DNA of 64,000 bases from Mustelus asterias (lineage: Eukaryota), in contig NW_027591885.1 in assembly GCF_964213995.1 (NCBI RefSeq), positions 1 through 64,000 of the forward strand, in the 5' to 3' direction. Each line of letters begins with the position of its first letter. Within the stretch, counting starts at the first letter, position 1. The translations under genes and the position numbers were made by a program. The notes beneath the pieces are model-generated. The model ran no database searches, was not told the origin of the DNA, and saw nothing but the letters and a program-made list of their open reading frames with translations. Shown in pieces: positions 745-52,384 of the stretch.

Positions 745-1766
745 TGAACATGCTCACAATTGTGACGCTGAAGAGCCGGAACTGTGGTCTGTCCAAATGC
801 GTCACTCGATATCTGGTGTCCATGTCATTGGGGGATCTAATGGTCGTTTATCTTGACCTGATACTGAGACATATTCCCATTGTTCATGCGGAACATTTTC
901 AATTCCTGTTGTCCATACCCGTGTGTAACATCCACGCCGTCCTGCTTTATGCAGCCACTGACTGTTCTGTCTGGTTCACTGTCACTTTCACCTTTGATCG
1001 ATTTGTGGCCATTTGCTGTGCCAAGCTGAAAAGTAAATATTGCAGTGAGAAAACGGCAGCTGTGGTTCTGGGAACAGTGACGGTGCTGAGCTGTTTAAAG
1101 AACATTTTCTGGTATTTTATGTTAACCAGTGATTATTGGCTGAAGAACATACCCTGGTTTTGTAGCTCTACATCATATGTTGACTATTCTCTGGCCTGGG
1201 TGGGAATTGTGTTCCTCCACAACATTCTGAACCCATGTGTTCCATTTGTCCTGATTTTGCTGCTCAACGTCTTCACCATCAGACAAATTTTAGTGAGCAG
1301 CAGAGCCCGCAGGAGACTCCGAGCTCATAGCAGTGGGGAGAATCCCAGAGACCCCGAGATGGAGAGTCGAAGGAAATCCATCATTTTACTGCTTTTAATA
1401 TCAGTCAATTTCATTCTGCTATGGTCAATGACCATGGTTTTTACGACTTCTGAACGGCTTTTGTGGTTGGGGTATCAGACTAAACTTTTTCCTGTTTGCT
1501 TTCGGGAATTTGGCTTCATGCTGCAGCTCCTGAGTTGCTGCACAAACACTGCAATTTACGCTGTGGCACAGACTCAGTTCAGACAGCAGATGAAAAATGT
1601 GTTGAAATTTCCTTTCACTAAAATTCTTCAATTCATTAAACTCTGCGGAAAACCCACACACACGGCCTCTCTAATTTCCTATTGGACATTCAAACTTTAT
1701 TACACAAACCATCCTCATACTGATTGGACAGATGAAACAGCACCATCAGCTCTGCTCTGCAACTGA
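745..1766 (+). CDS. GPCR gene A exon 2: class A 7TM receptor, GPR139/GPR142-like (exon 1 not found in the window, presumably upstream)
   Basis: Polypyrimidine tract plus AG at 743-744, phase 1 (g|TG AAC = VN). Motifs CGLSKCVTRYL, DL in TM2, VCNIHAVLLYAATDCSVWFTVTFTFDRFVAICC, VPFVLILLLN, DPEMESRRKSIILL and LQLLSCCTNTAIY. Open to TGA at 1764-1766. Confidence 0.9.
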
Positions 1767-1994
1767 TCACTCCGCCTATCCATCATTGTGGTTCTTGACA
1801 GTGACTGGACAGAAATGGGCCATTCACCATTTCTGCTCTTCCATTTGTCAGCCAAATTGCCCATCGTCACAACCCGTCACCAGCCTCCCAGTGTTTCTGC
1901 CACTTCATTGGCCAGTCAGTATGTTCATCACCTTCATCACTTACAAAGATTGGATCCCAATCCTCCAATCAGGAATAGTGGTTCATGGTTGGCC

Positions 1995-2045
1995 GGGGGT
2001 GGGGGGGGGGGGGGGGGGGGGTGGGGTGGGGAGGGAAGTGGGGGT
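1995..2045 (+). other. G-rich tract with G-quadruplex potential
   Basis: ggggg-t-poly(G)-tggggtggggagggaagtgggggg, just 3' of gene A. Confidence 0.5.
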
Positions 2046-2149
2046 ACGTAAGATGTGAGGTAAATGGGTTTGCACAGGCAGGTGCACTACAGCAGCACCA
2101 GCCACAAGCTGAGCAAGGCCAACTGACTGACCGAGCAAGTGAGGCCAAC

Positions 2150-3862
2150 TACACCAAAAATCAGGAAAAAAGTTAAAAGGAAGGAGAACTCAGGAAGTGT
2201 TAGAATCCAAAAAGAAGGTACAAAAACTAGCATAAGGGCACTTTATCTGAATGGTCATTGCATTCAAAACAAGGTAAATGAGTTGACGGCACAAATCATT
2301 GTGAACGAATGTGATTTGGTGGCCATTTCAGAGACATGGTTGCTGGATGGTCAAGATTGGGAGTTACATGTCCAGGGGTATCAGATTGTTTGGACGGACC
2401 GAGAGGGAGGTGGTGTAGCTCTGATATTTAAGGATGACATCAGGGCGGTAGTGAGAGACGATTTTGGTTCTATGGAACAAAAGGTTGAATCTATTTGGGT
2501 GGAAATTCGAAATAGTGAGAAGAAAAAGTCACTGATAAGCATAGTCTATAGGCCACCAAATAAGGACATCATGGTGGGGCGAGAAATAAACAAAGAAATA
2601 ACTGACGCATGTAAATATGGTACAGCAATTATCATGGAGGTTTTAATCTACACATCAATCGGTCAAACCAAGTCGGCCAAGGCAGCCTTGAGGAGGAGTT
2701 CATAGAATGTATCCGCGATAGCTTCCTTGGACAGTATCTAATTGAACTTACGAGGGAGCAAGCTGTCCTAGATCTGGTCCAGTGTAATGAGATAGGAATA
2801 ATTAATGATCTTGCAGTGAGGGATCCTCTCGGAAACAGTGATCACAGTATGGTTGAATTTAAAATACAGATGGAACGTGAGAAGGTAAAATCCGATACGA
2901 ATGTCTTGTGCTTAAACAAAGGTGATTACAAATGAATGAGGGAGGCGTTGGCAAAGGTAGACTGGAAGCAAAAATGTCATGGTTGGAGAATTGAGCAACA
3001 GTGGAGGACTTTCAAAGCGATCTTTCATAGTGCACAGTAAACGTATATACCCGTGATAAGGAGCGACTGTAGAAAAAGAGATAATCGGCCATGGATATCT
3101 GAGGAAATGAGGGAGGGTATCAAATTAAAAGGAAATGCATACAAAGTGGCAAAGAGTATTGGGAAATTAGAGGATTGGAAAGTCTTTAACGGTTAACAGA
3201 AAGCCATGAAAAAAGCTATAAAGAAAAATAAGATGGATTATGAGAGTAAACAAGCTCAGAATATAAAAACGGATTGCAAACGTTTTCACAACTGTATAAA
3301 ACGAAAATGAGTAGCTAAAGTAAACATTGGTTCTTTACAGGATGAGAAGGGGGATGTAATAACTGGAAATGAGAAAATGGCTGTGGCATTGAACAGGTAT
3401 TTTGTGTCAGTCTTCACAGTGGAAGACACAAATAACATGCCGAAAATTGGTGACAGGAAGTCTCTGGCAAGTGAGGGCCTAGAAACTATCATTATCACGA
3501 AAGACGTAGTGTTGGACAAGTTAATGGGGCTAAATGTAGACAAGTCTCCTGGTCCTGATGGAATGCATGCCAGGGTAATAAAGGAAATGGCGGGAGAAAT
3601 AGCAAATGCACGAATGGTAATTTACCAAATTTCGCTGGACTCTGGGGTTGTTCCCGCACATTGGAAAACAGCAAAAGTGACGCCACTGTTTAAAGAAAAA
3701 GGTAGACAAAAGGCATGTAACTATCGGTCGGTTACCTTAACGTCTTTAGTGGGGAAAATGCATCAATCTATCACCAAGGAAGAAATAGCGAGACATCTGG
3801 ATATAAAATGTCCCATTGGTAAGACGCAGCATGGCTTCATGAAGGGAAGGTCAAATTTGACT
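2150..3862 (+). mobile_element. CR1 LINE internal fragment (APE endonuclease to early RT), degenerate
   Basis: ALYLNGHCIQNK, AISETWL, IVYRPP, KSPGPDG, NYRSVTLTS and QHGFMKGRS, with stops and frameshifts; no 3' end. Confidence 0.9.
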
Positions 3863-3935
3863 GAATGACTGAGCGAGTAATGCAGACTGAATGATAAGTG
3901 AGGCCGACTGACCAACTGGCCGAGTGAAGCTTTTT

Positions 3936-4200
3936 GGGTGGCATGGTGGCAAATTGCTTAGCACTGCTGCATCACAGATCCAGGGACCCGGGTTCGAATC
4001 CCAGCTTGGGTCACAGTCTGTGTGGAGATCGCACGTGCTCCTCGTGTCTGTGTGGGTTTTCTCTGAGTGCTCCTGTTTCCTCTCACATTCTGAAAGACGT
4101 GCTGGTTCGGTGCATTGACCCCAACAGACCCCGGATTGCGGCGACTCGTGGAATTTCACAGTAACTTAATTGCAGTGTTAATGTGACTTGTGACTAATCA
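3936..4200 (+). mobile_element. HE1-related tRNA-derived SINE with alternative 3' tail
   Basis: Head gggtggcatggtggc..ttagcactgctgc, B box ggttcgaatccc, central gggtttt..gtgctcc; tail cacagtaacttaattgcagtgttaatg. Confidence 0.85.
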
Positions 4201-5644
4201 ACAAATGATCAAGCAAGCCAGTGTGGCTGAATCACCGACCAATTGAGTGAGGCTGAATGCTGAGACCGATACATATACCAAGTGAGCGAGGCCGACTGAC
4301 TGACCGAGCAAGTGAGGCCGACTTTCCGACTGATTGAATAAGGCAGACAGGCCAAAAGATAAATGAAGACTGACCAAGCGGGTGAGGCTAACTGAGCAAG
4401 CAAGGCCGACTGACCGACTGAGTGAATAAGTCAGAATGACCAAGCAATTGAGGCCGATCTCCCTCGACAGATTTATGAGAACAACTAAAGTAAAAATTCA
4501 ATGTGCATCATTATCTGGCACGATATCAAAACAAACACGAACATGCACCCCAGGCAATAATATCAAGCTCAATAACGCAATTAATTGCTAAAACATACTC
4601 ATGTGCCTTATCAATCATGCACGCTGCAGCAACAACCTGAAAGTTTATTCAATTCTGTGTGCTTAGAAAGTTTTACATATCCTGATAATTATTGTTTCAT
4701 TTTGCAACTTAGAATTTCGTTTCTCGATTGGAACACAGATTTCTTCACCTTTATATTGGCTATCAAGCTGCTTTTAAATTCATTGTAACAAAAGAAAATT
4801 AACGCAGTGTTACCAGGTCGAATCTAAAATGATCGATAATCTCATACAGCCTGCATTTGTTACACTGTCCAACGTTACAATTAATTGCGAATTGATCATC
4901 GAATTTGCTGTCACAGGGATACATCAAATAACAGAATCTATGTCTGAAAGAGAGCATCACCCTCCATCAACTTTAGCCTTCTGAGTTATGAAGGCACAGA
5001 TCAGTGGATTTTTGATTATGGATTCTGGGCTCACAAGAAAGCTATAGCCATTATGTTTCTTTGTGATTGTGGTCTTGCTCTGTACCGCTTTATTTCCGTT
5101 ATCCATCTCTGTTTCAATACAAAAAAATAGCACGAGTTGTCAAAACTCTTGTTGTGTTTGCTCAATATGGAAAATAATCAAAGCCTCTTATGTTTCCTGG
5201 TCCCGATTTTACTGCGGGAATTTCCATATAGAATTAGATCACTACAAACTGATGGGTGGCGGAAATCACATGACCACAGACAAAGGGTGAATTCAGAAAT
5301 GAAAAACCGCTTTCTTTAATGGGCACGTGCTGCGGGTTGGGGGGACGGGGGCGGTGACTGGAATCAGTGTTGTCCAAATTAAACCCGCTCTCTGCCCCTC
5401 GCACGTGTCACACAGTTCACCGTGATCAAATGGAATGTGCCATCTGATTAACACTTGAATTGGTTGTCACACCCGAAACAAACAACTGCATCCTTTAGGA
5501 AATTCAGCTGGTCAATGGCAGGGTATCATAATCCCAAAGGGAAACTTGAATCAGCTGCCACAAAAGGTGTGCACTCTGTATGAAACGTTGAATCATCTAA
5601 AATCGCAATAAATGCATTTTAAAACAATTATCATGATGGTTTGT

Positions 5645-6360
5645 ATTGATTTGATTTGATTTATTACTCACATGTACTATCATACACTGAAAAAGTATTG
5701 TTTCTTGAGCTATAAACACAAAACCTGCAGCTCATAGAGAAGGAAATGAGAGAGTGCAGAGTGTAGAGTTCCAGTCATAGCAGTGTTGTGGAGAAAGATC
5801 AACTGAATGCAAGGTAAGTCCATTGAAAATTCTGACGGCAGCAGGGAAGAAGCTGTCCTTGAGTCGATTAGTGTGCGACCTCAGATTTTTGTATCTTTTT
5901 CCCGACGGAAGAAGGTGGAAGAGAGAATGGCCGGGGTGCTTGGGGTCCTTAATTATGTTGGCTACTTTGCCGACGCAACGGGAAGTGTGGACAGAGTCAA
6001 TGGATGTGAGACTGTTTGCGTGATGGATTGGGTTGCATTGACCACCTTTTGTACTTCCTTGCGGTATTGGGCAGAGCAGGAGCCAGAACAAGCTGTGATA
6101 CAAGCAGAAAGAATGCTTTTTATGCTGCATCTGTAAACGTTTGTGAGAGTCGTGGCTGATAGGCCAAATTTCCTTAATCTTCAGACGACATAGAGGCATT
6201 GGTGGGCATTCTTAACTATAGTGTCGGCATGGGGAGACCAGGATAGGTTGTTGGTGTTCTGGACACTAAAAACGTGAAGCTCTCGACCCTTTCTACTTCG
6301 TCCCCGTTGATGTAGACAGGGGCATGTTCTCCTTTACACTTCCTAACGTCGATGACAATC
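5645..6360 (-). mobile_element. Rex1/Babar-like non-LTR retrotransposon 3' fragment
   Basis: Minus-strand HPGHSLFHLLPSGKRYKNLRSHTNRLKDSFFPAAVR C-terminus; (CAAAT)n tail at about 5647-5663. Confidence 0.7.
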
Positions 6361-6869
6361 TGTTGTATATTCAAGGTCACAGGTTAATAAAAATGTAAAA
6401 CGTATAACACTTAAAACACGAAACACCTTTAGACAGGTCACATAATGTTCTAAACTTTTCCTGAAGGCTTTTGATTATGTGAGCTCAGATCTTAAATCCA
6501 CTTGAAGGCCTATTGGTGGGGTAGCCGAGTTGACCAGTACTGTCAGGAAATGTCAGACCATAGAACATTCACGAAGCCAGTGTTTCTGTAACAATGACCT
6601 AACTTTATTTAACCAGCAACTGCCAAGTGATCATCAAAGGTTCGAGTCAGCTCTCAACTAGACCAGCCGGACCACCCTGAATAGATCTGATGTTTACAAT
6701 CAAAACAGATCAAAAATAGTTTTCTCATCGATCATTCCTGCCTTATATGATCTTAACAACAATCATTTTACGAGATACTTATCAACAATAATCCCTGACA
6801 TGCACTTCAGCCAATTCTAGTTTCCCATTCAGCATAATGAGGTCTTATTCGTCCATGGAATCCGGTTAG

Positions 6870-9295
6870 AAAGATAGGGTGGTAATCGTCGGAGATTTTA
6901 ACTTTCCCAGCATTGACTGGGACAGCCATAGTATTCGAGGCTTGGATGGAGTGAAATTTGTTGAGTGCATTCAGGAGGAATTTTTCATTCCGTTTGTGGT
7001 GACAGAAGTGTTAGTGAGGGATCACTTTGGGACCAGTGACCATCATTCTATTACTTTTACGAGAGCTATGGACAATGATGGGTCTGGCCCAAAAGTTAAA
7101 ATTCTAAATTAAGGCAAGGCCAATTTTGATGGTATCAGGCAGGAACTTTCAAAAGTTAATTGAGGAGTCTGTGGGAAGGCAAAGGGACGACTGGTAAGTG
7201 GCACGCTTTCAAAAGTGTGTTCATCAGGGTTCAGGATAAACACATTCCTCTTAGAGTGAAGGGCAAGGCTGGCAGAAGTAGGGAGCCCTGGATGACTCGG
7301 GATATTGAGGCCCTGGTCAAGAAGAAGAAAGAGGCACATGACGTTCATAGGCAGTTGGAATCAAGTGAATCCCTTGAAGAGTATAGGGGGTGTAGGTGTA
7401 CAGTTAAGAGAGAAATCAGGAGGGCAAAAAGGGGACACGAAATTGTTTTGGCAGATAAGGCAAAGGAGAATCCAAAGAGCTTCTACAAATATATAAAGGG
7501 CAAAAGAGTAACAAGTGGGAGAATAGGGCCTCTTAAGGATCAACAATGTCATCTATGTGCGGATCCACAAGAGATGGATGAGATCCTAAATGAATAATTC
7601 TCAACAGTATTTGCTGTTGAGAAATGCATGGATGCCAGGGAACTTGGAGAAATAAATAGTGATGTCTTGAGTAGTGTGCATGTTACAGCGAAGGAGGTGC
7701 TGGAAGTCTTAAAGCGCATCAAGGTAGATAAATCCCCGGGACCCGATGAAGTGTATCCCAGGACATTTTGCCAGGCTAGGGAGGAAATTGCGGGTCCCCT
7801 AGCCGAGATATTTGAATCATCGATAGTCACGGGTGAGGAGCCTGAAGATTGAAGAGGGGCAAATGTTGTACCTTTGTTCAAAAAGGGCTACAGGGAAAAG
7901 CGTTGGGAACTACAGGCCAGTGAGCCTCACATCTGTGGTAGGTAAATTGTTGGAAGATATTTTGAGAGACAGGATCTACAGGCATTTAGACATGCCAGTA
8001 CTGATGGGAACAGTCAGCATGGCTTTGTGAGTGGAAAATCACGTCTCACAAATTTGATTGAGTTTTTTGAAGGGGTAACCACGAAAGGAGATGAGGGCAG
8101 TGCAGCTGATGTTGTCTACATGGACTTTAGCAAGGCCTTTGACAAGGTACCGTATGTTAGATTGTTGCATAAGGTTTAATCTCACGGGATCCAAGGTGAG
8201 GTATCTGAATGGATACAAAATTGGCTTTTTGACAGAAGCCAGAAGGTAGTTGTCGAGAGTTGTTTTTCAAACTGGAGGCCTGTGACCAGCGGTGTGCCTC
8301 AGGGATCCACTGTTATTTGTCATTCATATTAATGATTTGGATGAGAATATAGGGGACATAGTTAGTAAGTTTGCAGATTACACTAAATTGGTGGCATAGT
8401 GGAAGTGAAGAAAGCTATCTTCAATTGCAACGGGATCTTGATCAATTGGGCCAGTCGGCTGAGGAATGGTAGATGTAGTTTAATTTAGCAAAATGCGAGT
8501 TGTTGCATTTTGGTAGATTGAACGAGGGCAGGACTTACTCAGTTAATGGTAGGGCGTTGGGGAGAGTTACAAAACAAAGAGATCGAGGGGTACATGTTCA
8601 TAGCTCCTTCAAAGTGGAGTCACAGGTGGACAGAGTGGTGAAGACGGCATTCGGCGTGCTTGGTTTCATCAGTCAGAACATTGAATGCAGGAGTTGGAAT
8701 GTCTTGTTGAAGTTGGACAAGATATTGGTAAGGCCACACTTGGAATACTGTGTGCAATTCTGGTCACCCTATTGTAGAAAGGATATTATGAAACTAGAAA
8801 GAGTGCGGAAAAGATTTACCAGGATACTACCGGGGCTTGATTGATTGAGTTATAAGGAGAGGCTGGATAGACTGGGACTTTTTTCTCTGGAGCGTAGGAG
8901 GCTGAGGGCTGATCGTATACAGGTTTATGAAATAATGAGGGGCACAGATCAGCTAGATAATCAATATATTTCACTAAAGGTAGGGGAGTCTAAAACTAGA
9001 GGGCATAGGTTTAAAATGAGATGGGCGAGCCACAAAATTGTTCAGAAGGGCATTTCTTTCACACAGAGAGTGGTAGGTGTCTAGAGCAAGCTGCCAGAGG
9101 TAATTATAGAGGTGGGTACAATGCTGTCTTTTAAAAAGCATTTAGATAGTTACATCGGTACGATGGGTATAGAGGGATATGGGCCAAATGCGGGCAATTG
9201 GAATTAGCTTAGGGGTTTAAAAAAAATGAGCGGCATGGACAAGTAGGGCCGAAGGGCCTGTTTCAATGCTGTCAACCACTATGACTCTGTGACTA
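6870..9295 (+). mobile_element. CR1 (HER1-like) LINE, 5'-truncated ORF2 relic with intact 3' end
   Basis: VIVGDFNFP, GTSDH, KSPGPDE, NYRPVSLTS, VRPHLEYCVQFWSP and LGLFSLERRRLR; 3' gggccgaagggcctgttt..ctatgactct tail; internal deletion near 6995. Confidence 0.92.
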
Positions 9296-9299
9296 ATAC

Positions 9300-10090
9300 T
9301 GGGAAGGGGGTGAGGGGATAATCTTTCCAGAGTGTGGATGTTTACTCATGAAGACTGCTCAGATGGATGGGATATAAACGGTGGTGGGGGGTGCTGTTTA
9401 GATGGACAGCGTTTGGACAATCTGGGATTCCAAAGGGAGAATGGTTTCATGTCAGTGGGACTTTTCTGAAGGATGAATTTCTCGGAGTACGTGGTGGGGA
9501 TGGCGAAAACGTGCATGACTTAAATGGGATTTTAAGTTGTCGAGCGGTTTCCTCATGGTCAGTGTTCATTTACACGGAGGATCACGGAGATATAGAAGGC
9601 ATGAGTATTCAGCAAAAAGTTATAGATGAAGCGAGTTATTGCAGCAGACTGGAGCGATGTAGATAATGAATTTGTCTGCAGAAAGAAAAAGCTGCTGGTA
9701 TTGTGTGGGTATCTATTAAAAAGGCGCTGTTCAAGGCACATTGAAGAAGAACGAAGACCAACATTTCGAGAACCACACGCAGGCAGTTGTGTTATATTTG
9801 GTTGTCAGCAAGTAACTTGGAAGTGGAATAATTATTTCGATGGGGTTTTTAGCATCTTCTCCTAATTGCGGGCACCCACACGTTTTCCAGTATTCGGGAC
9901 ATATGATTATTATGGGGACATTATTTTGTTGGCTGCAGTTGGCGTTATTTTTTTCTGGAGGCATTATCTGGTGATAGAGAAATACATAGTTGTTTGGAGA
10001 TGCATATTTATTTCAAGGGCTGAAGTGGGCTCCATCATTTTCTGCGCGCTATGTAACTTCCAATATTTACTCCCAGGCACATCACAGGCA
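9300..10090 (-). mobile_element. Very old decayed LINE relic, possibly L2-like
   Basis: Faint resemblance to L2 3' sequence; shares the 17-mer gcagaaaatgatggagc with the region near 63574. Family is uncertain. Confidence 0.3.
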
Positions 10091-10099
10091 AACTTTAGA

Positions 10100-19185: not shown

Positions 19186-19389
19186 NNNNNNNNNNNNNNN
19201 NNNNNNNNNNNNNNNNNNNNNNNNNNNNNNNNNNNNNNNNNNNNNNNNNNNNNNNNNNNNNNNNNNNNNNNNNNNNNNNNNNNNNNNNNNNNNNNNNNNN
19301 NNNNNNNNNNNNNNNNNNNNNNNNNNNNNNNNNNNNNNNNNNNNNNNNNNNNNNNNNNNNNNNNNNNNNNNNNNNNNNNNNNNNNNNNN
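19186..19389. other. Assembly gap (204 N)
   Basis: N run. Confidence 1.
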
Positions 19390-21526: not shown

Positions 21527-22428
21527 TTATGTTTTTGCTAATTTAGAAATAAGTGTGAAGGGATATTTCACCATATTATTTATCTGTGCTCTGAATTTAG
21601 TCTGTGTCACGGCATAAATACAGGTGTTTGTGCAGCAACTCAGGAGCTGCAGCATATATCCGATGAGCAGTACATAATATGGGATGTAAACACGCATATG
21701 TCCTACATAATAAATGCGATACCATATAAAATAAATCATATACACTGCCCATAACAGGATAAAATTACCAGAAATAGAAAAGAGTAAAATTATTGATTTC
21801 CTTCTGCTCTCCATCTCTTGGTCTCGGGAGCTGTCCCTATGGCTCTGAAGGCAAAGTCTCCTTCTTGCTCTGCTGGCTGCTAAAATGCTTCTGACGGTTA
21901 AAACATTTAGAAGCAGAATGAGAAAAAATGGCAACCCCGGCGTGAGAAGATAATGGATGATCTCAATTGTCGACCATATTATTGAATAGCTGACATCTCG
22001 ATAGGCATGGCAAAGCCAGGGACCGAGATTCAATGAATATTCATCCAATAACATGAAGTACCAGAATATATTTTTCAAACAGCACAGCACAGTCAATGTT
22101 CCCAGAATCACAGCAGCATTTCTCTCAGTGCAATAGTTGGTTTTCAGCTTGGGGCAGCAAATGGCAACATGTCGATCAAAGGTGAATGCGACAGTGAACC
22201 AGACGGAACAATCAGTTGCTGCATAAAGCAACACGGCGTGGATGTTACACACGGGAATGGATCTCAAGAAAAAGAACTCTCTCCAATACAGAATCGGTAT
22301 CTGCCTCCATACCAGATCCAGAATAACAACCAATAGATCGGCTGTTGCCATTGCGACAAGATAGCGAGTCACACTTTTGGAAAGGCCACATTTACCACGA
22401 GATAGAATCACAATTGTGATTAAGTTAA
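21527..22428 (-). CDS. GPCR gene B exon 2 (GPR139/GPR142-like)
   Basis: Acceptor cctatctctcAG at 22430-22429, phase 1 (g|TT AAC TTA = VNL). GKCGLSKSVTRYLVAMATADL, VCNIHAVLLYAATDCSVWFTVAFTFDRHVAIC, DQEMESRRKSIILL and LQLLSCCTNTCIYAVTQTKFR; TAA at 21529-21527. Confidence 0.92.
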
Positions 22429-27633: not shown

Positions 27634-27639
27634 AAATCA

Positions 27640-34735: not shown

Positions 34736-34739
34736 TTAG

Positions 34740-36884: not shown

Positions 36885-37490
36885 TGTAGATAGATAGACA
36901 GACAGGCGGACAGACAGACAGTTTGACGGAAGGACAGACGGGCNNNNNNNNNNNNNNNNNNNNNNNNNNNNNNNNNNNNNNNNNNNNNNNNNNNNNNNNN
37001 NNNNNNNNNNNNNNNNNNNNNNNNNNNNNNNNNNNNNNNNNNNNNNNNNNNNNNNNNNNNNNNNNNNNNNNNNNNNNNNNNNNNNNNNNNNNNNNNNNNN
37101 NNNNNNNNNNNNNNNNNNNNNNNNNNNNNNNNNNNNNNNNNNNNNNNNNNNNNNNNNNNNNNNNNNNNNNNNNNNNNNNNNNNNNNNNNNNNNNNNNNNN
37201 NNNNNNNNNNNNNNNNNNNNNNNNNNNNNNNNNNNNNNNNNNNNNNNNNNNNNNNNNNNNNNNNNNNNNNNNNNNNNNNNNNNNNNNNNNNNNNNNNNNN
37301 NNNNNNNNNNNNNNNNNNNNNNNNNNNNNNNNNNNNNNNNNNNNNNNNNNNNNNNNNNNNNNNNNNNNNNNNNNNNNNNNNNNNNNNNNNNNNNNNNNNN
37401 NNNNNNNNNNNNNNNNNNNNNNNNNNNNNNNNNNNNNNNNNNNNNNNNNNNNNNNAGACAGGCAGACAGACATGCAGTTAGGTAGACTGT
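36885..37490. repeat. (GATA)/(GACA)n microsatellite spanning a 512-N gap (36944-37455)
   Basis: tagatagatagacagacag on the left and agacaggcagacagac on the right of the N run. Confidence 0.9.
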
Positions 37491-38597: not shown

Positions 38598-38694
38598 CAG
38601 GTACAGCAACAGCAGCGAGAACTGGATAGTAGATTTTTTGTATATTCCGAATAGAAAAAAGTATTCTTGCCACTGATTGATGATCTCTTTCCAT
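38598..38694 (-). CDS. GPCR gene B exon 1
   Basis: ataATGG start with an in-frame TGA upstream; MERDHQSVARILFSIRNIQKIYYPVLAAVAVP+G then donor GTGAGT (38597-38592). Phase 1 matches exon 2; 97+902=999 nt gives 332 aa. Confidence 0.88.
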
Positions 38695-42725: not shown

Positions 42726-43090
42726 GAGGGGGGACTGCGATCGGTTGCATGCAGTTGAACAATGTTGCGTTTTCTGGAGGTCCACGCTGATATGTTGCAT
42801 ACTCTTGAAATGTGATGTGCTGTATGCAACTGAAATGTGATGTGTTGAATGCAGGTGGATTGTGATGGGTTGTATGCGTTTAAATTTTGATATTAGATCA
42901 AAAAAGGTTGAGTACTTGATTCGACTGCACCCCACGTTCACCTGAGCTGAACTTTCAGATCTGAATCTCGCAATGAAAATATTTGCCTCGCGAGATCACT
43001 TGAAATGTTCACTGGGTGAATATTTTCACTGTACTCCATTGATGCTGCCCGGATACAGCGTAAAGTAAAACACAGAAACAACAATATGCC

Positions 43091-46000
43091 TGTTGTGACA
43101 ACGACAGTACTCATCAATAAGTCTAAGCGTGCGGTTTGTGGAGTACCAGATGCCGTATCGAGTGAGTGGAGACTCGCCCAATGAGGAACAGCCAGCCGGG
43201 GATTTTTAGCCTGTAGCTGTGCCCAGATCGGATTTGTAGGTCACGAGTTGAGGATTACATGGCTGTAAACTGTGGGAGCGGTCTTTTCCTTTGGGGCACA
43301 ATAAAAGGTGTTGGGGACGGCATTTGGCTGAAGTATTACATTGGTGTCGAGGAGAAAACAATGCATTTTCCTCCAGCATTCCTTGCAGACAAACTCTAAA
43401 CATCAAGAATTTATCTGGTCAGAAAAAATAATTATGCATCTTTTCGGGAAACTTGAACCCTATCACACCATTGGGGGAAGACTGGGTCCAATACACTGCA
43501 TGCATTATTTCGTCCGTGCTAACAACATTGAAGGAGACAAGAAAAGAAAACTTGACATTGCTAACAGCATGCCGGGCCCCGACTTTCAGTTTAGTAATAC
43601 GCCGAATCTCTCCTGATGCCCCAAATCAAAAAAAAATAATGAACTCGTCGGCCTGATGAAAATCCACGACAACCTGAACTCCCCTTCAATATTCCAGAGA
43701 TATTGCTTCAATATTGCTTGGGGATCCCCTGTGGAATCTGCCACTGAGTTCTTGGCCAGGTGGCAGAAACTTGTTGAACACTGCGGAATTGGATAATCTC
43801 TGAATGAAATGTTGTGGGACAGATTTGTATTTGACATAAAAGACCTAACCACTCAAAGGTCGCTCTTGGCAGAATCCAATGTGGACTTTATAAAGTCCAT
43901 TGAGGTAGCCTTGTCAATTGAACATGCCACACAAGGGGATCAGTAGTTACAAGGGGCATCAGCCAGCTATATCTTTGAGCCGGGGGTAGGCATCACATGC
44001 AAACAGTACTCAATGCAGAGCACTTGTGTCAATCAGGGATGAAAAATACCCATTCATTATCGGAATCTAAAGGCATCACTAGGTAGTCAATGCCAGCACG
44101 AAGAGTATTAAAGAACATGCTCCAAAGCGTTGCACTTGATAGCTGAATCACTGCTGCAAGCGTTGTCGAAGTGCAAAACCACGGTGATGTTTCAGAAATG
44201 GGAAATAAAAATGTGCTGCCTAAGAAGAAAGCCAAAGCTATTCTCTGTATTTAACTTACAGGTATCCCCTTTTACAGAGACAGGGACACTACAACTAAAT
44301 CGTATTATAACAACTGGGAATGGTTGAGTTACGTAAATGGTCATCTCTTGAAGATGAAGGTGGATACTGGCGTCGCAGTCTCCATTATCAGAGAACAGAC
44401 ATGTAAGCACTTCCAATCGGGGATCCAATGCCTGAGTTTGGAAGTTTTGAAGGACCAGCTAAACACCTACACGCGGGAAGATTTACAAATAAAAGGCACC
44501 ACAGTGGCCGCAGTGACATCTAGACAGCAATCAGATCGGCTGCCATTCATTGGTGTCCGGGGGAATGGACAAAGCCTGCCTGAGGTACAATTGGGTCCTG
44601 CAGATTACAGTTGTCTAACCTGCTGAAGATCTGCAGGCGAGGCATGTGGGGACTGTACGATGATATCAGGAGATACCCTGGAGCTTTTCAGGAGGGCCTG
44701 GGGAAAATAGAAAGAGTCAGGGCCAAGATCTACGTTGACACTAATACTCCACCTGGGGTATTTCAGATCTAAACCAATCCCAAAATCCAGGCGAGAGAAC
44801 GTGGAAACTGAACGAACGCGCCTTGAAGTCTTGGGTACAATAAGACCTGTGCAAATTACAGAATGGGCTTTGCCCATCCTACTGCTCTTCAGTTCGTCTT
44901 AATTAAATAACTGTCAATCGGGTATCCAAACTCGTTCTTGTACTCCATGCCCAAGATTGAAGAATTGTACGCCACGTTAACGGGTGGCAAGCTGTCCTGC
45001 AATTTGGACATGAACCACGCCTATCCTCAACTTGAATTGGACGAGTTACCCTGAAATATCTGTGACTTTCAACACACAAAAAGGACTGAACGAATATACC
45101 CGTATACCCTTCGGGATCTCAACAGTATGTGCGTGGGTCCCATCAGCGTGTGTCATCTTCCGAAGGATACTAGTGAACACCCTTCATGGGCGAGACAAAG
45201 CAGCAGTTTCCTTAGATGATTTTTAGGTCACGGGGGAATTAGAAGAGGAACAACTGCCGAACCTAGAAGAAGTATTGCAAGGTTTCCAGAGCGGGAGTAC
45301 GCTCGATGGGGAAGAAATGCGTTTTCCAAACAGCTGAAGTAACCTATTTAGGCAGCCAAGTAGATGGAAGGTGGTTACATCCAGTGGAGGATAAATTAAA
45401 AGCCATCAAGGAAACATCAACCCAACTAACAGCACGGAATTCAATACTTTTTGGAGTAAGTAAATTATTACAGAAAATGTATCCTGAATTTGGCTTCGAT
45501 GCTGCCAACTTGCATACCTTATTCCGAATATATCACAGATGGTCCTTGGAATCTCCGCAGGCAGTGGCTTCGTCTATAGTTAAACGCCAGTTACTGTCAT
45601 TAACATACGGGCCCTTTTTGACCCGAAAAGTTTGATTCTAATTTATCTTGTCACCTCTCCCCATACAGAGTTGGTGCAGGGATGTCAATTGCTGAAAAGA
45701 CAGATGGAGTCGCCCATCGTGTGTGGCTCCTGGACCTGTTGGATGCAGAATGATGATATCCTCAAATTGGGAAGGAAAAGCTGGTGGTCGTTTTTGGTAT
45801 GAATAAGTGCCACCAATGCGTCTTAGGTGAATATTTTATAGTCATCGAACATAACGCCTTACTGGACCTCTTCTAATTGTACCGCACCGCACCGTACACA
45901 ACAACATGTGTGGCTCCAACGTCGCTATTAATGGAATGTCGGTTCGTGAAAGTATGGACTTCCAATTCACAAACGTGGTGGATAGAATATTGTCCCAGAA

Positions 46001-46633
46001 GGAGAATTGAAAAAGAAACTTTGATTCGAAAAGGTCCAAAATAACTTACGCAACGGTTGACCTGATTCATTTAAGGAACTTTCAGCAGGGCCCCGCATGT
46101 ATCCCTGCAATCGTTTGGGTGAAAAAACGATCAGTATCCTAAAAGGCCAAAGTTCAGAATACCAACCGGAAGAAGCACAGAGGCCACCTCATGGTCAGGT
46201 TCTCCATGCGCGAGGCATCCCACCACTGGCCATGGAGATAGGCCTTGCCAATGACTGTCCACAGCTTAAAGGTTACTCCGAGTTCCCACTCTGGATAGTA
46301 ATGGCATGGACTCTGAAATGAGCGCTGAAGAAGTGGGCCTCCAGGCTGAAGTGGAACCTGAGCAGGATGTTACCGAGACCTCAAGGACCCCAGCAGATCA
46401 TCAGTATATATTTCTGTGCGCTTCCTAGAGTCGGAGCTTCCTTATTGAGAGAACTGAGGCTCGCAAAGTGGGGTGCATCCAGCGGGTTTTTGAAACATGT
46501 ACCTTTACCAGGAGCAGGCTTGTAGATGCCGAGGTGAGAGCTGTCTGACTATAAGCTGCAGGAGGAACAATTAACTTTGATACACAAAAAAAATGTTGGT
46601 GACGCTGAACTCGCGTTTGGCTGAATTACGACA
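43091..46633 (+). mobile_element. Ty3/Gypsy LTR retrotransposon relic with two diverged LTRs
   Basis: 5' LTR about 43091-43340 (TG..CA) then PBS-like tggtgtcgagga. gag LFGKLEPY..EDW..YF.ANNI; protease MKVDTGVAVSII; RT EYTRIPFGI/VSLDD; integrase largely deleted. 3' LTR about 46368-46633 is alignable to the 5' LTR. Confidence 0.85.
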
Positions 46634-46639
46634 GTAGCA

Positions 46640-46960
46640 TTCCAATATGTCGTTTTAAGTCTCTTTATGGCCTTGTTCCACCTAGCACTTCACTTCATTA
46701 TGCTTGCCTTCCCTATTACTGCATGCGAGCTTTTTATAATTTATGTACCAATATTCTGAATCTCTCCCTGCTGCAGGTATCTGCAGTCTTTCCTCGTTTG
46801 ATTAATATTCAGTTACTATAATCTTTCTAACAAAGTGTATAACATTACATTTTCCTACATTTCAGTACAACCTCCTGGGTTTTAACGATTCACTTACCCT
46901 GTCTATATGCCTTTGTACACTCTTTGCGCAACCCTCACTACAAGGTATCCTCACCACTTG
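46640..46960 (-). mobile_element. Degenerate CR1 RT fragment
   Basis: acattacattttcctacatt and ctgtctatatgcctttg, matching the reverse complement of the CR1 thumb region. Confidence 0.5.
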
Positions 46961-47299
46961 AATAGATATATAATTGGGAAGTGCTAATGATCAGATAGGG
47001 GTTACAGTGTGTATGTAAGCCTATTTATAACTAACAAATCAATGTTAACTTTTTTTTCTTTTTTTGAAGAGCTTGAGAAAGGGTATTACAGAGATTTGTA
47101 CCTGGGATGGATGCTAGTTGATGGAGAAATGGCAGTGATGGTGTGGGGGTGGCCATGGAGCTAGTTGCAGAAGTGGGGAAATGAGACAATGAAGCTATTG
47201 AATCGTCTATTACATAAATAAAAATGTATCAGAATCGCAGATTTGATACTGGGAAGGAAAGACAATAAAGATGTGATGGTCTGAGGAGGTGTGAGAACA

Positions 47300-49780
47300 C
47301 ACTCTACACACTCTTATGTGATATTTCGTCGAAAGCCTTCTGAAAGTCCAAATAAACAAAAACCACTGGCTTCTCTCATCATCTCCACGTTTTCGAACTC
47401 TATCTCTACTCAAACTGATCTCCTTCAATTGCTCCCTTTCACTAAACCGTGTGCTCCCAAACGTTTCTGATACTCTATTTGTGCCCTCCTTTGTGAAGAC
47501 AGAACAAACGTATGGATTCAGGTTGTCGTCTATTTCTTTGTTTCTCATTATAAATTCCCCTGATTCTATCTGTAAGGGACCTACAATTGTCTTCCCCGAA
47601 ATTTTTCTGCTCATAAACTTGTATAAATATATACAGTTTGATAAAACGTTACCTGACAAGCTCACACTCGTACTCTATTTCACAGTTCTTAACCAGTCCT
47701 TTCGTCGGTATTTGTTGAATTGTATCTGTTCACAATACAAAGAACAAAGAACAATACAGCACAGGAACAGGCCCTTCGGCCCTCCAAGCCCGCGCCGCTC
47801 CCCGGTCCAGGATTGAATCCTGAATCCAGGATTCCCGCCCAATTTTCCAGCCTATCTACATACCAATATCCTATCCACCGAGCTGTCCCCCACAGCTACG
47901 ATGCTTTGTTCATTACAACCTATTAACTCAACCCCACCCCCCGCCCCCATTCCAGACCATGTGATCTCCAGGGAGAGGGCTGCCCTGCAGGGTCTGCTGT
48001 TTTTCTTACCAATATGTCTGCCTCTCCCAGTTTCCCTTGGAAGCCATCGTTTGGCCGCCTCTCCAGTTTTATTTTTCGCCAGAGAGTAATTCGCAATTGT
48101 TGCAGTTTACAAGTGTTCTCCTTGAATGTTTGTCATTGCCTATCACCGTCACCGGTATAAGTCAGGCTTCCTAATCTATCATTGCCAACTCGTGCCTTTA
48201 ATCATTGCAGTTCATTTTTAAAGCGTATGATTTAGGAGCATATTCTCAGCATCAACTAGGTCACTCTTGATCTTATTGAAAATATCTGTCATGTTGTGGT
48301 CGCTTTTCACCAACTGTTCTCTCACAACTAGGTTACCAACTGTTCCTTTATAATTCTACAATGCACAGTCTTGGATGGTCTGTTCTTTAGTTGGCTCCTC
48401 AACATATTGGTCCAGAAAGCATCCCGTATATACTCCATTTATGCCTCTTGTACGGTATTGTGACAAATTTGATTAGCCCAATCTATATGCAGATTAACAT
48501 GACTCATAATAACAAATGTTCCGTTTGTGGATATATCTGTCATTGCCCGTTTAATGTCAGTCCCAACATCACCACAACATTTTGGGGGCTAATATACAAT
48601 ACTTCCTAAGCTTTTTCGCCCACTTATTTTTTCTTAGCTCTATCCATATATCTTTCACATTAACGGAATTAATATCCTTCCTCAGCGTGGTGTTTATTTC
48701 CACTTTAATTAGCAAAGCAAATCCAACGCCTTCACCTTTTTACGTTCCAAAATACTGAATACCCCTCGATGTTCAGTTCCCATCACCCTGTAAGCATCTC
48801 TCCGAAATCCCGAATACAGCCTACCAGTATACATCTATTTGTGCAATACTTAATCACGGTATTGTGAATGCTCCGACATTAAGACACAGCACATTTAGGC
48901 TCGTCTTTTTCACATTACTGTTGGTGTTTGCACTATTTCTCATTGAAGAACTGCTTGAATTTGCCCTTACTTTCTCTGCATATGCTATTCTCACTCCTCT
49001 TCTGTCTTTTTTGTGATTGATTTCCCCTCATCTGACTCCATGCATAGTTCGCATTCCCATAAATTTTAGACTAACTTTTCCCCAACCCCTCTAGCCAATA
49101 CTCCCCCTTGGATATCGTTCCTGACCCTGCCCAGGTATAATCTGTCCTGTTCGTAAAGGTCCCACCTCCACCAGAACTGCTGCAATTTCCACAGCAATCT
49201 GAAACACTCTCCCTCTCACTATCGCTGCAGCCATGTATTCATCCTATATATCCTGTCATTTCTACTCTGACAAGCACGTGGAACTGGTATTAATCCTGAG
49301 ATCACAGGCTTTGAAGTCCGGAATTTTAAAACTTACTTCGTAACTCCATATAATTTGCATTTAGTACCTCATCCTATTTTATCCTATCTAATTGGTACTA
49401 ATGTGTACCAGGAACACTGGTTGTTCACCTTCCCACTCTACAACGTGCTGGAACCGCCCCAAGGCATCCTTAGCCCTAGCACAAGGGAGGCAAAATATCA
49501 TCCTGAAGTCTTGGTTGCGGCCACAAAAACGCCTGTCTTTTCCCCTTACAATTGAATCCCCCATAACGATTGCATTCTCACACTTTTATTCTCCTCCCCT
49601 TTTCAGCAGAACCAACCGTGGTGCAACGAATTTGATGTTGCTGCTTTCCCCTGAAAGGTCGTTCCCTTCAACGGTATCGTTGTTTTTCAGGAGAATGGCC
49701 ACAGGACAATCCTGCACTGCCTCAGACTCTTCCTCTGCCTGCTGGTCACCAATTCCCTCACTGCCTTGGGAGTCTTAACC
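47300..49780 (-). mobile_element. CR1 relic (5' region, APE and linker), internally deleted
   Basis: KTIVGPLQIESGEFIMRNKEI..YVCSVFTKE; the endonuclease region and ORF1-like region lie further right. Confidence 0.75.
47735..47985 (-). mobile_element. Short CR1-tailed element nested in the CR1 relic
   Basis: caaagaacaaagaacaatacagcacaggaacaggcccttcggccc = reverse complement of the (ttgttct)n CR1 tail. Confidence 0.7.
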
Positions 49781-49789
49781 TCCAGTGTC

Positions 49790-50275
49790 GTCTCCTCTTG
49801 TACAGCTATTGCATTTGAAGTACTCACCTATATGTTTATGAAATGTAGTGCGGACTTCCCCTTCACCGCCCTGTGCAACATTGAGTCCCAGACTTTGAAC
49901 ATCCTCAGGGTGAAAATGTTTTTCCTCGATTGCGATTGAAATCCCCTGGCCATTCCCATAATTTATCCCCCCGGTCATGGTCCGGCTACTATGGGAAACA
50001 TTCCTTCCTATTTACTCTATCTATGCCACCCATAATTCTGTGCACCTCGATGATGTTCCTCCCAGCCTTCTCTGCTCAAAGGAAAACAATCCAGATAAGC
50101 TCGCAACACTTGAGAGTGCAAAGTCTCCTGATCACGTTCAACTTGAAACCTGTTGCAGTGCAATCGCATCCTTCTTATATTGTCGCGACCACATTTGAAA
50201 CAAATAATCTTTTGGCACTACATGCAGTAAGATCCACTGCCACAGTCTGTTACCACAAACAGACAACTTATAATG
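49790..50275 (-). mobile_element. Degenerate CR1 3' fragment
   Basis: tactctatctatgccacccataattctgtgcacctc..ccttctctgctcaaaggaaaacaatcc. Confidence 0.65.
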
Positions 50276-50279
50276 TGTG

Positions 50280-50395
50280 ATGGCACAAGGGACTCCCGAA
50301 ACCTTAAACTACCGCCCGAAGTCAACAGACATTTCCATCGTCCACCCCTCTTCCGCTCCGATTCCGTGGCGGGCGGGCCGGTAAACGTCCGGCGA
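50280..50395. mobile_element. MITE copy related to 16122-16250
   Basis: ccgcccgaagtcaacagacatttccatcgtccacc..gtggcgggcgggccggtaaa. Confidence 0.6.
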
Positions 50396-50576
50396 ATCCG
50401 ATAAAGAACAAAGTCACAACAACACAGTCCCATACCCTACTTCACAAAATCGATAAGTAACTGAATGATACTTATTATTTAACGAACAGAAATTGACAAA
50501 ATATGATCTCTGAATTATAAATTAAAACACAATGTTGAGTGAACTTTTTACCTTCTTTTCTCAATTCATGAGACCT

Positions 50577-50915
50577 CATAGAATCATAGAAACCCTACAG
50601 TGCAGAAGGAGGCCATTCGGCCCATCGAGTCTGCACCGACCACAATCCCACCCAGGCCCTACCTCCACATATTTACCCGCTAATCCCTCTAACCTACGCA
50701 TCACAGGACTCTAAGGGGCAATTTTTAACCTGGCCAATCAACCTAACCCGCACATCTTTGGACTGTGGGAGGAAACCGGAGCATCCGGAGGAAACCCACG
50801 CAGACACGAGGAGAATGTGCAAACTCCACACAGACAGTGACCCGAGCCGGGAATCGAACCCGGGACCCTGGAGCTGTGAAGCAGCAGCGCTAACCACTGT
50901 GCTACCGTGCCGCCC
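50577..50915 (-). mobile_element. HE1 SINE, well preserved copy
   Basis: Intact A box (tagcacagtggttagc), B box ggttcgattcc and (tctatgat) tail. Confidence 0.95.
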
Positions 50916-50926
50916 GTAATTTATAT

Positions 50927-51000
50927 TATAACGTATTTCATAACGTATTTTATAACGTATTGCATTTTATATTATAACGTATTTTATAACGTATTGCATT
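50927..51000. repeat. Short tandem repeat (tataacgtatt) x5
   Basis: Read directly from the sequence. Confidence 0.8.
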
Positions 51001-51789
51001 TTTTCCAACAGTAATTATTGTTAATTCCACAAACGGTTTGTTATTTAAACATTGAATTTCACTTGATGCATGGCGAAGCAATCGACTCTGTTTTTTTGTT
51101 ACTGATTTGAAGTCTCATCAGTTATCTTGCTCAGGGATCCTGGTCTCAACGCACCTCAGATTGTCCCTCAAACTTTTTGCCATTGTGCCCTAGAATTAAT
51201 CGCCCCTCTCGTTTTCCTCTACGTCGAACATTTCCACTGGTTTGGGTTAATGCACATGCATTTTCAGTCTCGGTCATCTTACTTCCACTCGATCAACTCA
51301 CTTACTATCTGCCCTCCACCCCCAAAAAGAAGCCCCACACCCCATTTTTAGATGAGCTTTGTGAATGAATGCCTGCGTTTAAGTTTGCGAGCAACCAGAC
51401 ACAGATTCAGCCTGAGTGGCGACATCGGATAGGGCAAGGGGAATGTGAATTGTGATTTTCCGTGGGAGAGGGGACGGGGGGCGGGGGGCGGGGGGACCGG
51501 GGGTCGGGGGAGGGGGGGGGGCGGGGAGTGTGGCAGATGATGGCAGGATGATGCGATGATTCAAATACGCTGATCCCGAATGTGGTTGGCTGTCCAATCT
51601 GATACAGGGAATATACCGTTTTGACTTTCAAATATCAAAGTGGTGACCATGATGTGCCGAGGGAATGTCGGGAGAAAAAAGAGAGTGCGTATTCCGTGCC
51701 ATTCGCTCGGTGCTCCGCTCGGATCAGTGATCAGCTCTCAGCTGTCGATTTGTCTCAGCAAAGCAGGTAATTTGCTACAGTCAAAACGT

Positions 51790-51990
51790 TCGTTATTCAT
51801 AACTATATTAAATAATGTTAAACTCATCGCAGACAGTCAACTGACTATCATTGGTATTGAAGCCGCGGAATCCAAAAATCAAAACAGGTTACTGGAACCA
51901 GTTTGTTTAGCGACAGAAATTAATTTAATTCTCCATGGATTCGTGATAATTATGTCTCATGGGAGGGCATCATTGTTTCAATAAAACGGG
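51790..51990 (+). promoter_or_regulatory. Putative proximal promoter of gene C
   Basis: TTATTCAT 51793, AATTAAT 51918, TCCATGGA 51932, TCTCATGGGA 51955 and AATAAAA 51980; GC/G-rich tract at 51465-51530 upstream. Confidence 0.5.
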
Positions 51991-52059
51991 AGTCACTTCT
52001 ATAAGTTATGAATTGGTAACACCATCAACAGGGAACAGTAGCTCAACTGAGAGTTATTG

Positions 52060-52384
52060 GAGGGATTGGAACAGTAGTTTGAAACATTACAATAATTGAT
52101 CTGTATCTGAGAGCAATAATTTAGAACGGCTCAGCAATGGATGAGAATCTGAGAACAATCGATTGGAATGATAGAACAATTGATGAGAATCTGGGAACAA
52201 TCGTTTGGAATGATACAGCAATGGATCAGGGTCTCAGAACAATAGATTCGAATGTTACAACGTTGGAAAGGGATTTGTTAGAGTAGCTTCAGCTGACACT
52301 GCTGGTTGAATGGGCGGATCGAGTACGCACTTTATGTTATTCAATACCTTTATTATTCTATGCTCACACTGATTGGTATTCCTG
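52060..52384 (+). pseudogene. GPCR gene C exon 1 (GPR139/142-like), disrupted; N-terminal 42-nt tandem repeats
   Basis: ATG 52137 MDENLRTIDWNDRT-IDENLGTIVWNDTA-MDQGLRTIDSNVTT-LERDLLE* (TAG 52284). A different frame reads RIEYALYVIQYLYYSMLTLIGIP+G with donor GTGAGT at 52385. Confidence 0.82.

What the first reader, a model, noticed from the sequence alone, without database searches (positions are those of the whole stretch)
745..52384. Cluster of three divergent two-exon GPR139/142-like receptors with mixed orientation and birth-death signature
Seen: A (+), B (-) and C (+) share a phase-1 intron in TM1 (P-G|GTGAGT ... AG|xNx). A and B keep TM3, ICL3 (EMESRRKSIILL) and TM7 nearly identical but differ strongly in ECL2 and ECL3/TM6-7 (for example TSDYWLKNIPWFCSSTSYVDYS vs LDEYSLNLGPWLCHAYRDVSYS). 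C is disabled. Established: mammalian GPR139 and GPR142 are single-copy receptors activated by aromatic amino acids (L-Trp; L-Phe). Inference: a conserved signalling face with a variable ligand face plus pseudogenisation is the pattern of an expanded chemoreceptor family, possibly sensing amino acids.
Basis: partly seen in the sequence, partly recalled or inferred. Interest (0 to 1): 0.75.

Follow-up and report, generated by a model that had tools for sequence, protein, structure and literature searches.

The report
Large overlooked shark receptor gene family
These genes belong to a very large family of cell-surface receptors that multiplied in sharks and rays and varies most where it binds its targets, so it may be an overlooked set of chemical sensors, though where it is used and what it detects are unknown.

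Summary
Partly confirmed. The window is shark/ray DNA. These are not GPR139/142 orthologues (about 27% identity to human GPR139). They belong to an elasmobranch radiation that RefSeq auto-names 'probable GPR139': 2258 hits and at least 75 distinct members in one Heterodontus proteome. Published olfactory repertoires of cartilaginous fishes are 20-62 genes. The nearest bony-vertebrate relatives look single-copy and keep their pocket fixed (0.15x and 0.49x mean divergence). Deep shark paralogues scramble the pocket (1.45x) and keep the G-protein face (0.52x). GPR139's three aromatic pocket residues are kept and its three polar ones are lost, so L-Trp/L-Phe sensing is unsupported. Best reading: a ligand-diversified sensor array, external chemosensory about 0.45, immune/nociceptive about 0.3. 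No expression data were found. No paper on the expansion turned up in the held library. The scan noted this family before in another genome (e1-7813824).

The parts
745..1766 (+). Gene A, exon 2 (mid-TM1 to stop, 339 codons). Open frame, but a weak GAG acceptor at 742-744 and a 49-residue tail after the helix-8 motif (family median 8). Exon 1 is not in the window.
21527..22428 (-). Gene B, exon 2 (mid-TM1 to stop). Model of residues 22426-21530: seven helices plus helix 8, mean pLDDT 92.4.
   Evidence: contigs of the same organism match listed parts with 0 differences
38598..38694 (-). Gene B, exon 1 (ATG to phase-1 donor in TM1, 97 nt). It is the nearest upstream first exon; the pairing is inferred from the open 332-aa splice, not from RNA.
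52137..52384 (+). C: first exon only, with in-frame TAG at 52284 and a net frameshift. No second exon up to 64000.
52135..52261 (+). Three copies of a 42-nt (14-residue) repeat in the N-terminal coding part of C. Similar repeats with an N-glycosylation sequon occur in many family members.
56745..56884 (-). D: TM1 part of a fourth first exon, with phase-1 donor CCTG|GTATGT.
56885..59757 (-). LINE retrotransposon (RVT_1, E 1.3e-10) inserted inside exon 1 of D.
59758..59861 (-). D: ATG and N-terminal repeat part of exon 1, 70% identical over 122 nt to the matching part of C.

Best explanation
SHOWN. A and B are members of a shark/ray radiation of class A GPCRs in the GPR139-related branch, with a short first exon and one exon carrying nearly all of the 7TM core. 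The family turns over by duplication and decay: 2 broken first exons lie beside 2 open second exons in this window. Deep paralogues differ most at pocket-lining positions and least at the G-protein face. The subclade holding A and B keeps a fixed deep pocket and varies its rim and loops.

INFERRED. Many receptors with different ligand ranges feed one conserved G-protein pathway, which is how a detector array works. The A/B subclade probably anchors a shared, likely aromatic, group on the kept Y/F3.33-H5.42-W6.48 floor and tells ligands apart by rim and loops. Peptides ending in an aromatic residue or aromatic metabolites fit better than free L-Trp/L-Phe.

COMMITTED GUESS. The array detects outside chemicals in sensory cells (nose, taste buds, skin or gill solitary chemosensory cells). 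The stated confidence is for this last step; family membership and pocket diversification stand at about 0.95.
For: Family size: 2258 and 2058 clusters at E<=0.001 for B and A. Of the 120 listed for B, 119 carry shark/ray names and 1 is unnamed; for A, 120 of 120 do. 83 Heterodontus-named hits fall into 75 groups at under 95% core identity; 51 Heptranchias hits give 43. In four runs of the window's organism, up to 73 contigs carry another letter at one TM3 site, and 63 contigs diverge from one TM7 site.

Control on 25 pocket positions, relative to whole-protein divergence: subtype Y 0.15x (22 rows), subtype X 0.49x (33 rows), deep shark paralogues 1.45x (35 rows; 0 of 5000 random TM site sets as variable), A/B subclade 0.82x with loops 1.96x (60 of 174 rows, drawn at random). 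G-protein face 0.52x in both shark sets. A and B differ at 10 of 25 pocket positions. Purifying selection overall, dN/dS 0.36.

Context: 20-62 olfactory receptor genes in cartilaginous fishes (PMC10869828, passages). The wider receptor group answers to peptides with aromatic C-termini (PMC8557429, passages). Srw/FMRFamide-receptor-like clusters are the next look-alikes, and such receptors are treated as candidate chemoreceptors in invertebrates (PMC11682238, passages).
Against: No expression, cell-type or ligand evidence at all. The catshark nose is described as relying mainly on V2Rs (PMC10116579 and PMC11979771, passages), and the 50 genes most specific to the brain-and-olfactory library included no GPCR (weak, since V2Rs were not among them either). 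In the A/B subclade the pocket is no more variable than other TM sites (30% of random sets as variable). Loop excess also appears in single-copy subtype X (1.44x). A-B dN/dS is not clearly above 1 in any region (ECL3 1.0-1.5 on 12 codons), so relaxed constraint is not excluded. The same pattern is expected of immune sensor families (recalled: FPR, MRGPR). Pocket positions were assigned by sequence alignment to GPR139, not by superposition. The A/B subclade set is biased to top hits of A and B.
Confidence: 0.45

Rival explanations
1. An internal sentinel array: immune-cell or nociceptor receptors for microbial or damage-derived peptides and small molecules. It would fill the role that MRGPRs and formyl-peptide receptors have in mammals.
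For: It predicts the same varied pocket on a fixed G-protein face. Cartilaginous fishes are reported to lack MAS1 and related receptors (PMC8455134, passage). 80 of 179 members examined have 1-5 N-terminal WNxxT/A repeats, which recalls glycosylated peptide-receptor N-termini (inference).
Against: No expression data. Pocket charge is not distinctive: 3.9 acidic and 2.4 basic residues on average in the A/B subclade, against 3.2 and 3.0 in subtype X. No sequence link to MRGPR or FPR appeared; GPR139 is the top solved match by sequence and by fold.
Confidence: 0.3
2. Receptors for a diversified set of the animal's own peptides (reproductive, social or endocrine signals), derived from a single-copy peptide receptor.
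For: Protostome relatives bind peptides with aromatic C-termini (PMC8557429). After GPR139, the best solved matches are peptide receptors (NTSR1, NMUR, GHSR). The deep pocket of the A/B subclade is nearly fixed (for example D3.37 in 80 of 80, R6.59 in 79 of 80).
Against: No matching expanded peptide family is known to me (recalled), and none was searched for. 35 of 35 deep paralogues have different pocket strings.
Confidence: 0.12
3. Mostly neutral copy gain in a repeat-rich genome: a few working genes and many decaying copies.
For: In this window 2 of 3 first exons are broken, A has a weak acceptor and an overlong tail, and LINE and DNA-transposon remains abound.
Against: A-B dN/dS is 0.36 overall and 0.05-0.10 in TM3. 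Divergent subclades are shared by sharks and rays with open frames. Divergence is patterned, with the G-protein face at 0.52x.
Confidence: 0.08
4. One reading: GPR139-type sensors of aromatic amino acids (L-Trp, L-Phe).
For: GPR139 is the nearest characterised relative. In the A/B subclade 3.33 is Y or F in 75 of 80, 5.42 is H in 76 of 80 and 6.48 is W in 80 of 80.
Against: The polar residues of the GPR139 site (E108, R244, N271; PMC7318219) are replaced: 3.32 L in 77 of 80, 6.51 F/L/Y in 79 of 80, 7.39 F/Y in 77 of 80. Dozens of pocket variants are not needed for two amino acids.
Confidence: 0.05

Closest known systems
GPR139 (and GPR142), class A orphan receptors for L-Trp/L-Phe
   Same: Top solved match by sequence (E 1.3e-10 for B; 7e-30 for the family profile) and by fold (7VUG rank 1, TM 0.68). 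Two exons (PMC7318219). No proline at 7.50. Aromatic pocket floor kept.
   Different: About 27% identity (78 of about 283 columns, hand count; 22% by structure), against 70% for human-zebrafish orthologues. Polar pocket residues lost. P6.50 absent from the top residues of the A/B subclade. Longer, conserved ICL3. Many copies rather than one.
Low-copy GPR139-related orphans of bony vertebrates: subtype Y (amphibians, sturgeon) and subtype X (coelacanth, teleosts, bowfin, caecilian, lamprey, one zebra-shark gene); possibly the GPR210 subtypes of Rinne et al. 2019 (PMC6504862)
   Same: Nearest non-elasmobranch relatives, 30-32% identical to B. One strongly supported branch with the shark family against invertebrate outgroups (100/100). 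Y shares the ICL3-end motif.
   Different: One or two rows per named species and a fixed pocket. Which subtype is sister to the shark family is unresolved: shark+Y has 91/92 support, but AU tests reject neither alternative (p 0.43). The link to GPR210 rests on taxon pattern only.
Vertebrate chemoreceptor families (OR, TAAR, V1R, V2R, T1R, T2R)
   Same: Clustered birth-and-death family, nearly single-exon 7TM core, variable ligand face with conserved signalling face.
   Different: Different branch of class A: only PF00001 matched A and B. Sensory expression untested.
Invertebrate srw / FMRFamide-receptor-like candidate chemoreceptors
   Same: Same wider receptor group. Next look-alikes in the Atlas (scores 0.96-0.98; PF10324 on 16% of one 'GPR139' cluster). 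Lineage-specific expansions are described (PMC11682238).
   Different: An independent expansion in a vertebrate; 25-29% identity to the invertebrate-like rows.
MRGPR and formyl-peptide receptor families (recalled)
   Same: Rapidly expanding class A sensor families with broad ligand ranges.
   Different: No sequence kinship seen; a functional analogy only.

Membership tests
Class A (rhodopsin-like) GPCR | PF00001 above cut-off; seven helices plus helix 8; D2.50, C3.25, DR motif, W6.48, Y7.53 | tested here: met
   61-63 bits against cut-off 30.5; model pLDDT 92.4; motif counts
GPR139 orthologue | High identity to human GPR139 (70% for zebrafish) | tested here: not met
   About 27% by hand count, 22% by structure; benchmark from PMC7318219
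GPR139 orthologue | Single copy per genome | tested here: not met
   At least 75 distinct members in Heterodontus and 43 in Heptranchias among top hits alone
GPR139 orthologue | Hydrophobic agonist site F3x33, H5x43, W6x48 | tested here: met
   In the A/B subclade Y/F 75 of 80, H 76 of 80, W 80 of 80; not kept at 3.33 and 5.42 in deep paralogues; mapped by sequence alignment
GPR139 orthologue | Polar agonist site E3x32, R6x51, N7x38 | tested here: not met
   L, F/L/Y and F/Y instead
GPR139/142-related branch | GPR139 is the best characterised match | tested here: met
GPR139/142-related branch | Placement in a tree with true GPR139 and GPR142 | not testable with these tools
   No true GPR139 or GPR142 sequence was returned as a usable protein; the trees lack them
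GPR139/142-related branch | Intron at the same TM1 position as in GPR139 | not tested
   Two exons per PMC7318219; that the position is the same is recalled only
GPR210 subtypes (Rinne et al. 2019) | Orthology to the named coelacanth Ensembl proteins | tested here: inconclusive
   The paper gives Ensembl ids only; its supplement has no sequences or ids for them; the taxon pattern of subtype X fits
Chemoreceptor family (functional class) | Lineage-specific expansion with pseudogenes | tested here: met
   broken exons C and D
Chemoreceptor family (functional class) | Ligand-pocket diversification against a conserved G-protein face | tested here: met
   Met for deep paralogues (1.45x against 0.52x); in the A/B subclade only loops and rim vary
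Chemoreceptor family (functional class) | Positive selection on ligand-facing sites | tested here: inconclusive
   Only the A-B pair was available as DNA; loops 0.72-0.90, ECL3 1.0-1.5 on 12 codons
Chemoreceptor family (functional class) | Expression in sensory cells and activation by outside chemicals | not testable with these tools
   No RNA run was offered; the catshark expression supplement could not be read

The most novel reading that the evidence does not exclude
Sharks and rays have a seventh vertebrate chemoreceptor family. It has on the order of a hundred or more genes per genome, arose from a GPR139-related peptide-receptor branch independently of OR/TAAR/V1R/V2R/T1R/T2R, and hides under the automatic name 'probable GPR139'. 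It would outnumber their known olfactory receptors and parallel the srw-type expansions of invertebrates.
Probability: 0.4. Interest if true: 0.88.

Novelty: new variant of a known kind. Interest (0 to 1): 0.62.

Why it matters
Cartilaginous fishes are described as having the smallest olfactory receptor repertoires of vertebrates (20-62 genes, PMC10869828) and relatively few GPCRs (PMC8455134), despite large olfactory organs. One shark proteome holds at least 75 distinct members of this family among top hits alone. That changes the GPCR count whatever the function. If the family is sensory, it offers an answer to that mismatch; if immune or nociceptive, it would be a counterpart of the MAS-related receptors that sharks lack. 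The question can be tested at once with public catshark tissue RNA data.

Tried and rejected
Third complete receptor C: searched four ways, no second exon found. Weak + strand hits near 35.9 and 36.3 kb (tblastn E 0.003 against 120 queries; nhmmer E 1.1; HMM E 0.7) were rejected as chance.

Own genome: not held, so no direct paralogue count. Expression: no RNA holder listed. Summed contig depth over TM3 was about 220 times the single-copy level in run X2 (39,013 against 163-182). The tool states this is no copy number, so it is not used as one.

True GPR139/GPR142 rows for the tree: not obtained. Sister group: shark+Y is favoured, but shark+X (p 0.428) and X+Y (p 0.426) are not rejected; one shark-only clade is not rejected either (p 0.586). 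Rows were a chosen subset (77, 37).

My first pocket table set the TM5 anchor three residues too early; one search corrects it, and only searches are used for TM5. An acidic-pocket (cationic ligand) idea was not borne out.

Literature, 10 searches. GPR139+shark, G-protein coupled receptor 139+cartilaginous, receptor 139+shark+genome+expan, GPR139+GPR142+evolution+expansion, GPCR+elasmobranch+expanded+orphan+chemosensory, GPR210 (37), GPR139+chondrichth, a shark chemoreceptor query and coupled receptor 139+shark listed no paper on the expansion, judged from listings. The tenth was on invertebrate srw. Supplements of three shark genome papers had no 'receptor 139' or 'gpr139' (one file cut when stored). 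The white shark and Hara et al. genome papers are not held, and the catshark supplement is unreadable; any of these could mention the family.


Full report
1. What is in the window. It is animal DNA rich in LINE remains, and its relatives are all from sharks and rays. No assembly is held. Two long frames are class A GPCR exons: A (+745-1766) and B (-22428-21527), each matching PF00001, 60% identical. Searches with A and B, with 120 relatives, and with DNA and protein profiles find no third 7TM exon. They do find three first exons, each ending in a phase-1 donor inside TM1. The one at -38694-38598 splices over 16,169 nt to B and gives an open 332-aa protein. C (+52137-52384) has a stop at 52284 and a net frameshift, and no second exon follows it in the window. 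A's first exon lies outside the window. A's acceptor has G at -3 and its tail is 49 residues against a median of 8 in 151 relatives, so A may be decaying. The cluster is real, but it is one complete gene, one second exon and two broken first exons.

2. The family. B finds 2258 clusters (90% identity) at E<=0.001 and A finds 2058. Of the 120 listed for B, 119 carry shark or ray names (51 Heptranchias, 40 Heterodontus, 20 Pristiophorus, 8 others; hand count) and 117 are auto-named GPR139. For A, 120 of 120 are elasmobranch, best identity 75%. An exhaustive search finds 122 clusters at 50% identity with E<=1e-30. Of 19 mid-range representatives looked up, 18 are elasmobranch and 1 is unnamed. The 83 Heterodontus-named hits give 75 groups at under 95% core identity and 67 at under 90%; the 51 Heptranchias hits give 43 and 28. 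These are lower bounds from top-ranked hits. In four runs of the window's own organism, 336-1414 contigs lie on B at 80% likeness, with up to 73 contigs showing another letter at one TM3 site, while listed pieces match B and its flanks exactly. So this genome also holds dozens of paralogues at least. No chimaera name appeared.

3. Relation to GPR139. Human GPR139 is the best solved match by sequence and fold, but at about 27% identity, whereas true orthologues keep 70% between human and zebrafish (PMC7318219, passages). The RefSeq name is therefore a best-hit label. Closer relatives are two low-copy subtypes: Y in amphibians and sturgeon, and X in coelacanth, teleosts, bowfin, caecilian, lamprey and one zebra-shark gene. 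No amniote name is among those 106 rows. Low copy number is read from that listing, not from genomes. They may be the GPR210 subtypes named by Rinne et al. (PMC6504862, section 47 and passages; supplement searched), but ids could not be matched. Trees put A and B in one fully supported subclade (100/100) of a wider shark/ray radiation, with X and Y each a clade. The order among the three is unresolved, and true GPR139/142 are not in the trees.

4. Where the variation lies. A versus B: TM3 32 of 34 identical, ECL2 8 of 22, ECL3 2 of 12, ICL3 12 of 23, TM7 18 of 27. Across 122 rows, loop entropy is 2.0 bits against 0.76 for intracellular loops and helix 8. A-B dN/dS is 0.36 overall, 0.05-0.10 in TM3 and 0.72-0.90 in the loops, which shows purifying selection on the core and no clear positive selection. 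Because loops vary in most GPCRs, I ran a control. Relative to whole-protein divergence, 25 pocket positions vary 0.15x in subtype Y and 0.49x in X, as expected for one conserved ligand. They vary 1.45x among 35 deep shark paralogues, whose G-protein face varies 0.52x. In the A/B subclade the pocket is average (0.82x) and the loops vary 1.96x; X also shows 1.44x in loops. So there are two layers: an old radiation that rebuilt the pocket many times, and a younger, larger one that keeps the deep pocket and changes rim and loops. A and B differ at 10 of 25 pocket positions. Numbering rests on sequence alignment to GPR139 and on the helix limits of the model.

5. Ligand. The GPR139 site has a hydrophobic part (F109, H187, W241) and a polar part (E108, R244, N271). 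The A/B subclade keeps the first and replaces the second with hydrophobic residues. It adds its own near-fixed polar set (D2.57, R2.61, H3.28, D3.37, E5.39, R6.59, E7.36, Q7.42); A has lost E5.39 and B has lost E7.36. GPR139-style binding of free L-Trp/L-Phe is therefore unlikely, but an aromatic group may still dock on the floor. That fits the aromatic-ended peptides of the wider receptor group (PMC8557429, passages). This is inference.

6. How it most likely works. Many receptors with different ligand ranges share one signalling face, which makes a detector array. Whether it faces the outside world (0.45), serves immune or pain cells (0.3), reads the animal's own peptides (0.12), is mostly neutral (0.08) or senses amino acids (0.05) cannot be settled from sequence. 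I favour outside sensing because of family size, turnover, the invertebrate srw-type parallel and the small known repertoire of cartilaginous fishes. Against it stand reports that the catshark nose relies on V2Rs and the lack of any expression data.

7. Novelty. The genes are annotated one by one, but no paper on the expansion appeared in the nine searches aimed at it or in the supplements I could read. A whale-shark paper speaks of a paucity of GPCRs in cartilaginous fishes (PMC8455134, passage). Two shark genome papers and one supplement were out of reach and may mention it. I confirm the expansion independently and add the pocket control, the low-copy relatives in bony vertebrates and the residue test. 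I did not confirm its figure of about a thousand genes or its presence in chimaeras. Papers seen: passages only for PMC7318219, PMC8557429, PMC10869828, PMC10116579, PMC11979771, PMC11682238 and PMC8455134 (plus a supplement search); abstract and outline for PMC6368271; supplement search only for PMC9826928 and PMC7677710; none in whole. Verdict: a real, apparently undescribed variant of a known kind (an expanded class A sensor-like family), interest 0.62.

Noticed in passing
window 56745-59861 (-): Fourth first exon (D), facing C tail to tail 4.4 kb away and split by a LINE. Its only downstream second exon in the window is B's, 34 kb off, so it is either an orphan or a dead alternative first exon of B.
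   Followed up: yes
window 52135-52261; relatives P0004, P0020, P0089: N-termini carry 0-5 copies of a repeat with an N-glycosylation sequon (14 residues in C; 80 of 179 relatives have at least one such motif). Copy number varies between paralogues; function unexplained.
   Followed up: partly
window 742-744 and 1640-1766: Gene A has a non-consensus GAG acceptor and a C-terminal tail about 40 residues longer than the family norm; possible early decay.
   Followed up: partly
window 54050-55966 (+): Broken frames that resemble a hAT/Buster-type DNA transposase (resemblance recalled; only a sub-threshold DUF4371 hit), lying between C and D.
   Followed up: partly
proteins P0263, P0291 (lamprey): Lamprey subtype-X receptor has a long ECL2 insertion of short repeats rich in NxT sequons.
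   Followed up: no
protein P0366 (Stegostoma): A subtype-X GPCR is annotated as 'transmembrane protein 183A isoform', probably a merged gene model; the name could be a synteny lead.
   Followed up: no
proteins P0320-P0380 (amphibians), P0403 (sturgeon): Subtype Y has an almost fixed, basic pocket (5 distinct pocket strings in 22 rows) and showed no amniote or teleost name: an orphan with a likely single acidic ligand (inference).
   Followed up: partly
window 19186-19389 and 36944-37455: Two assembly gaps (716 N in all); too short to hide a whole second exon if their sizes are right.
   Followed up: no
database entries P0007, P0021, P0041, P0061, P0079, P0114 and others: Several RefSeq models of this family begin with LINE-derived sequence in place of the true first exon, so the N-termini in databases are often wrong.
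   Followed up: no
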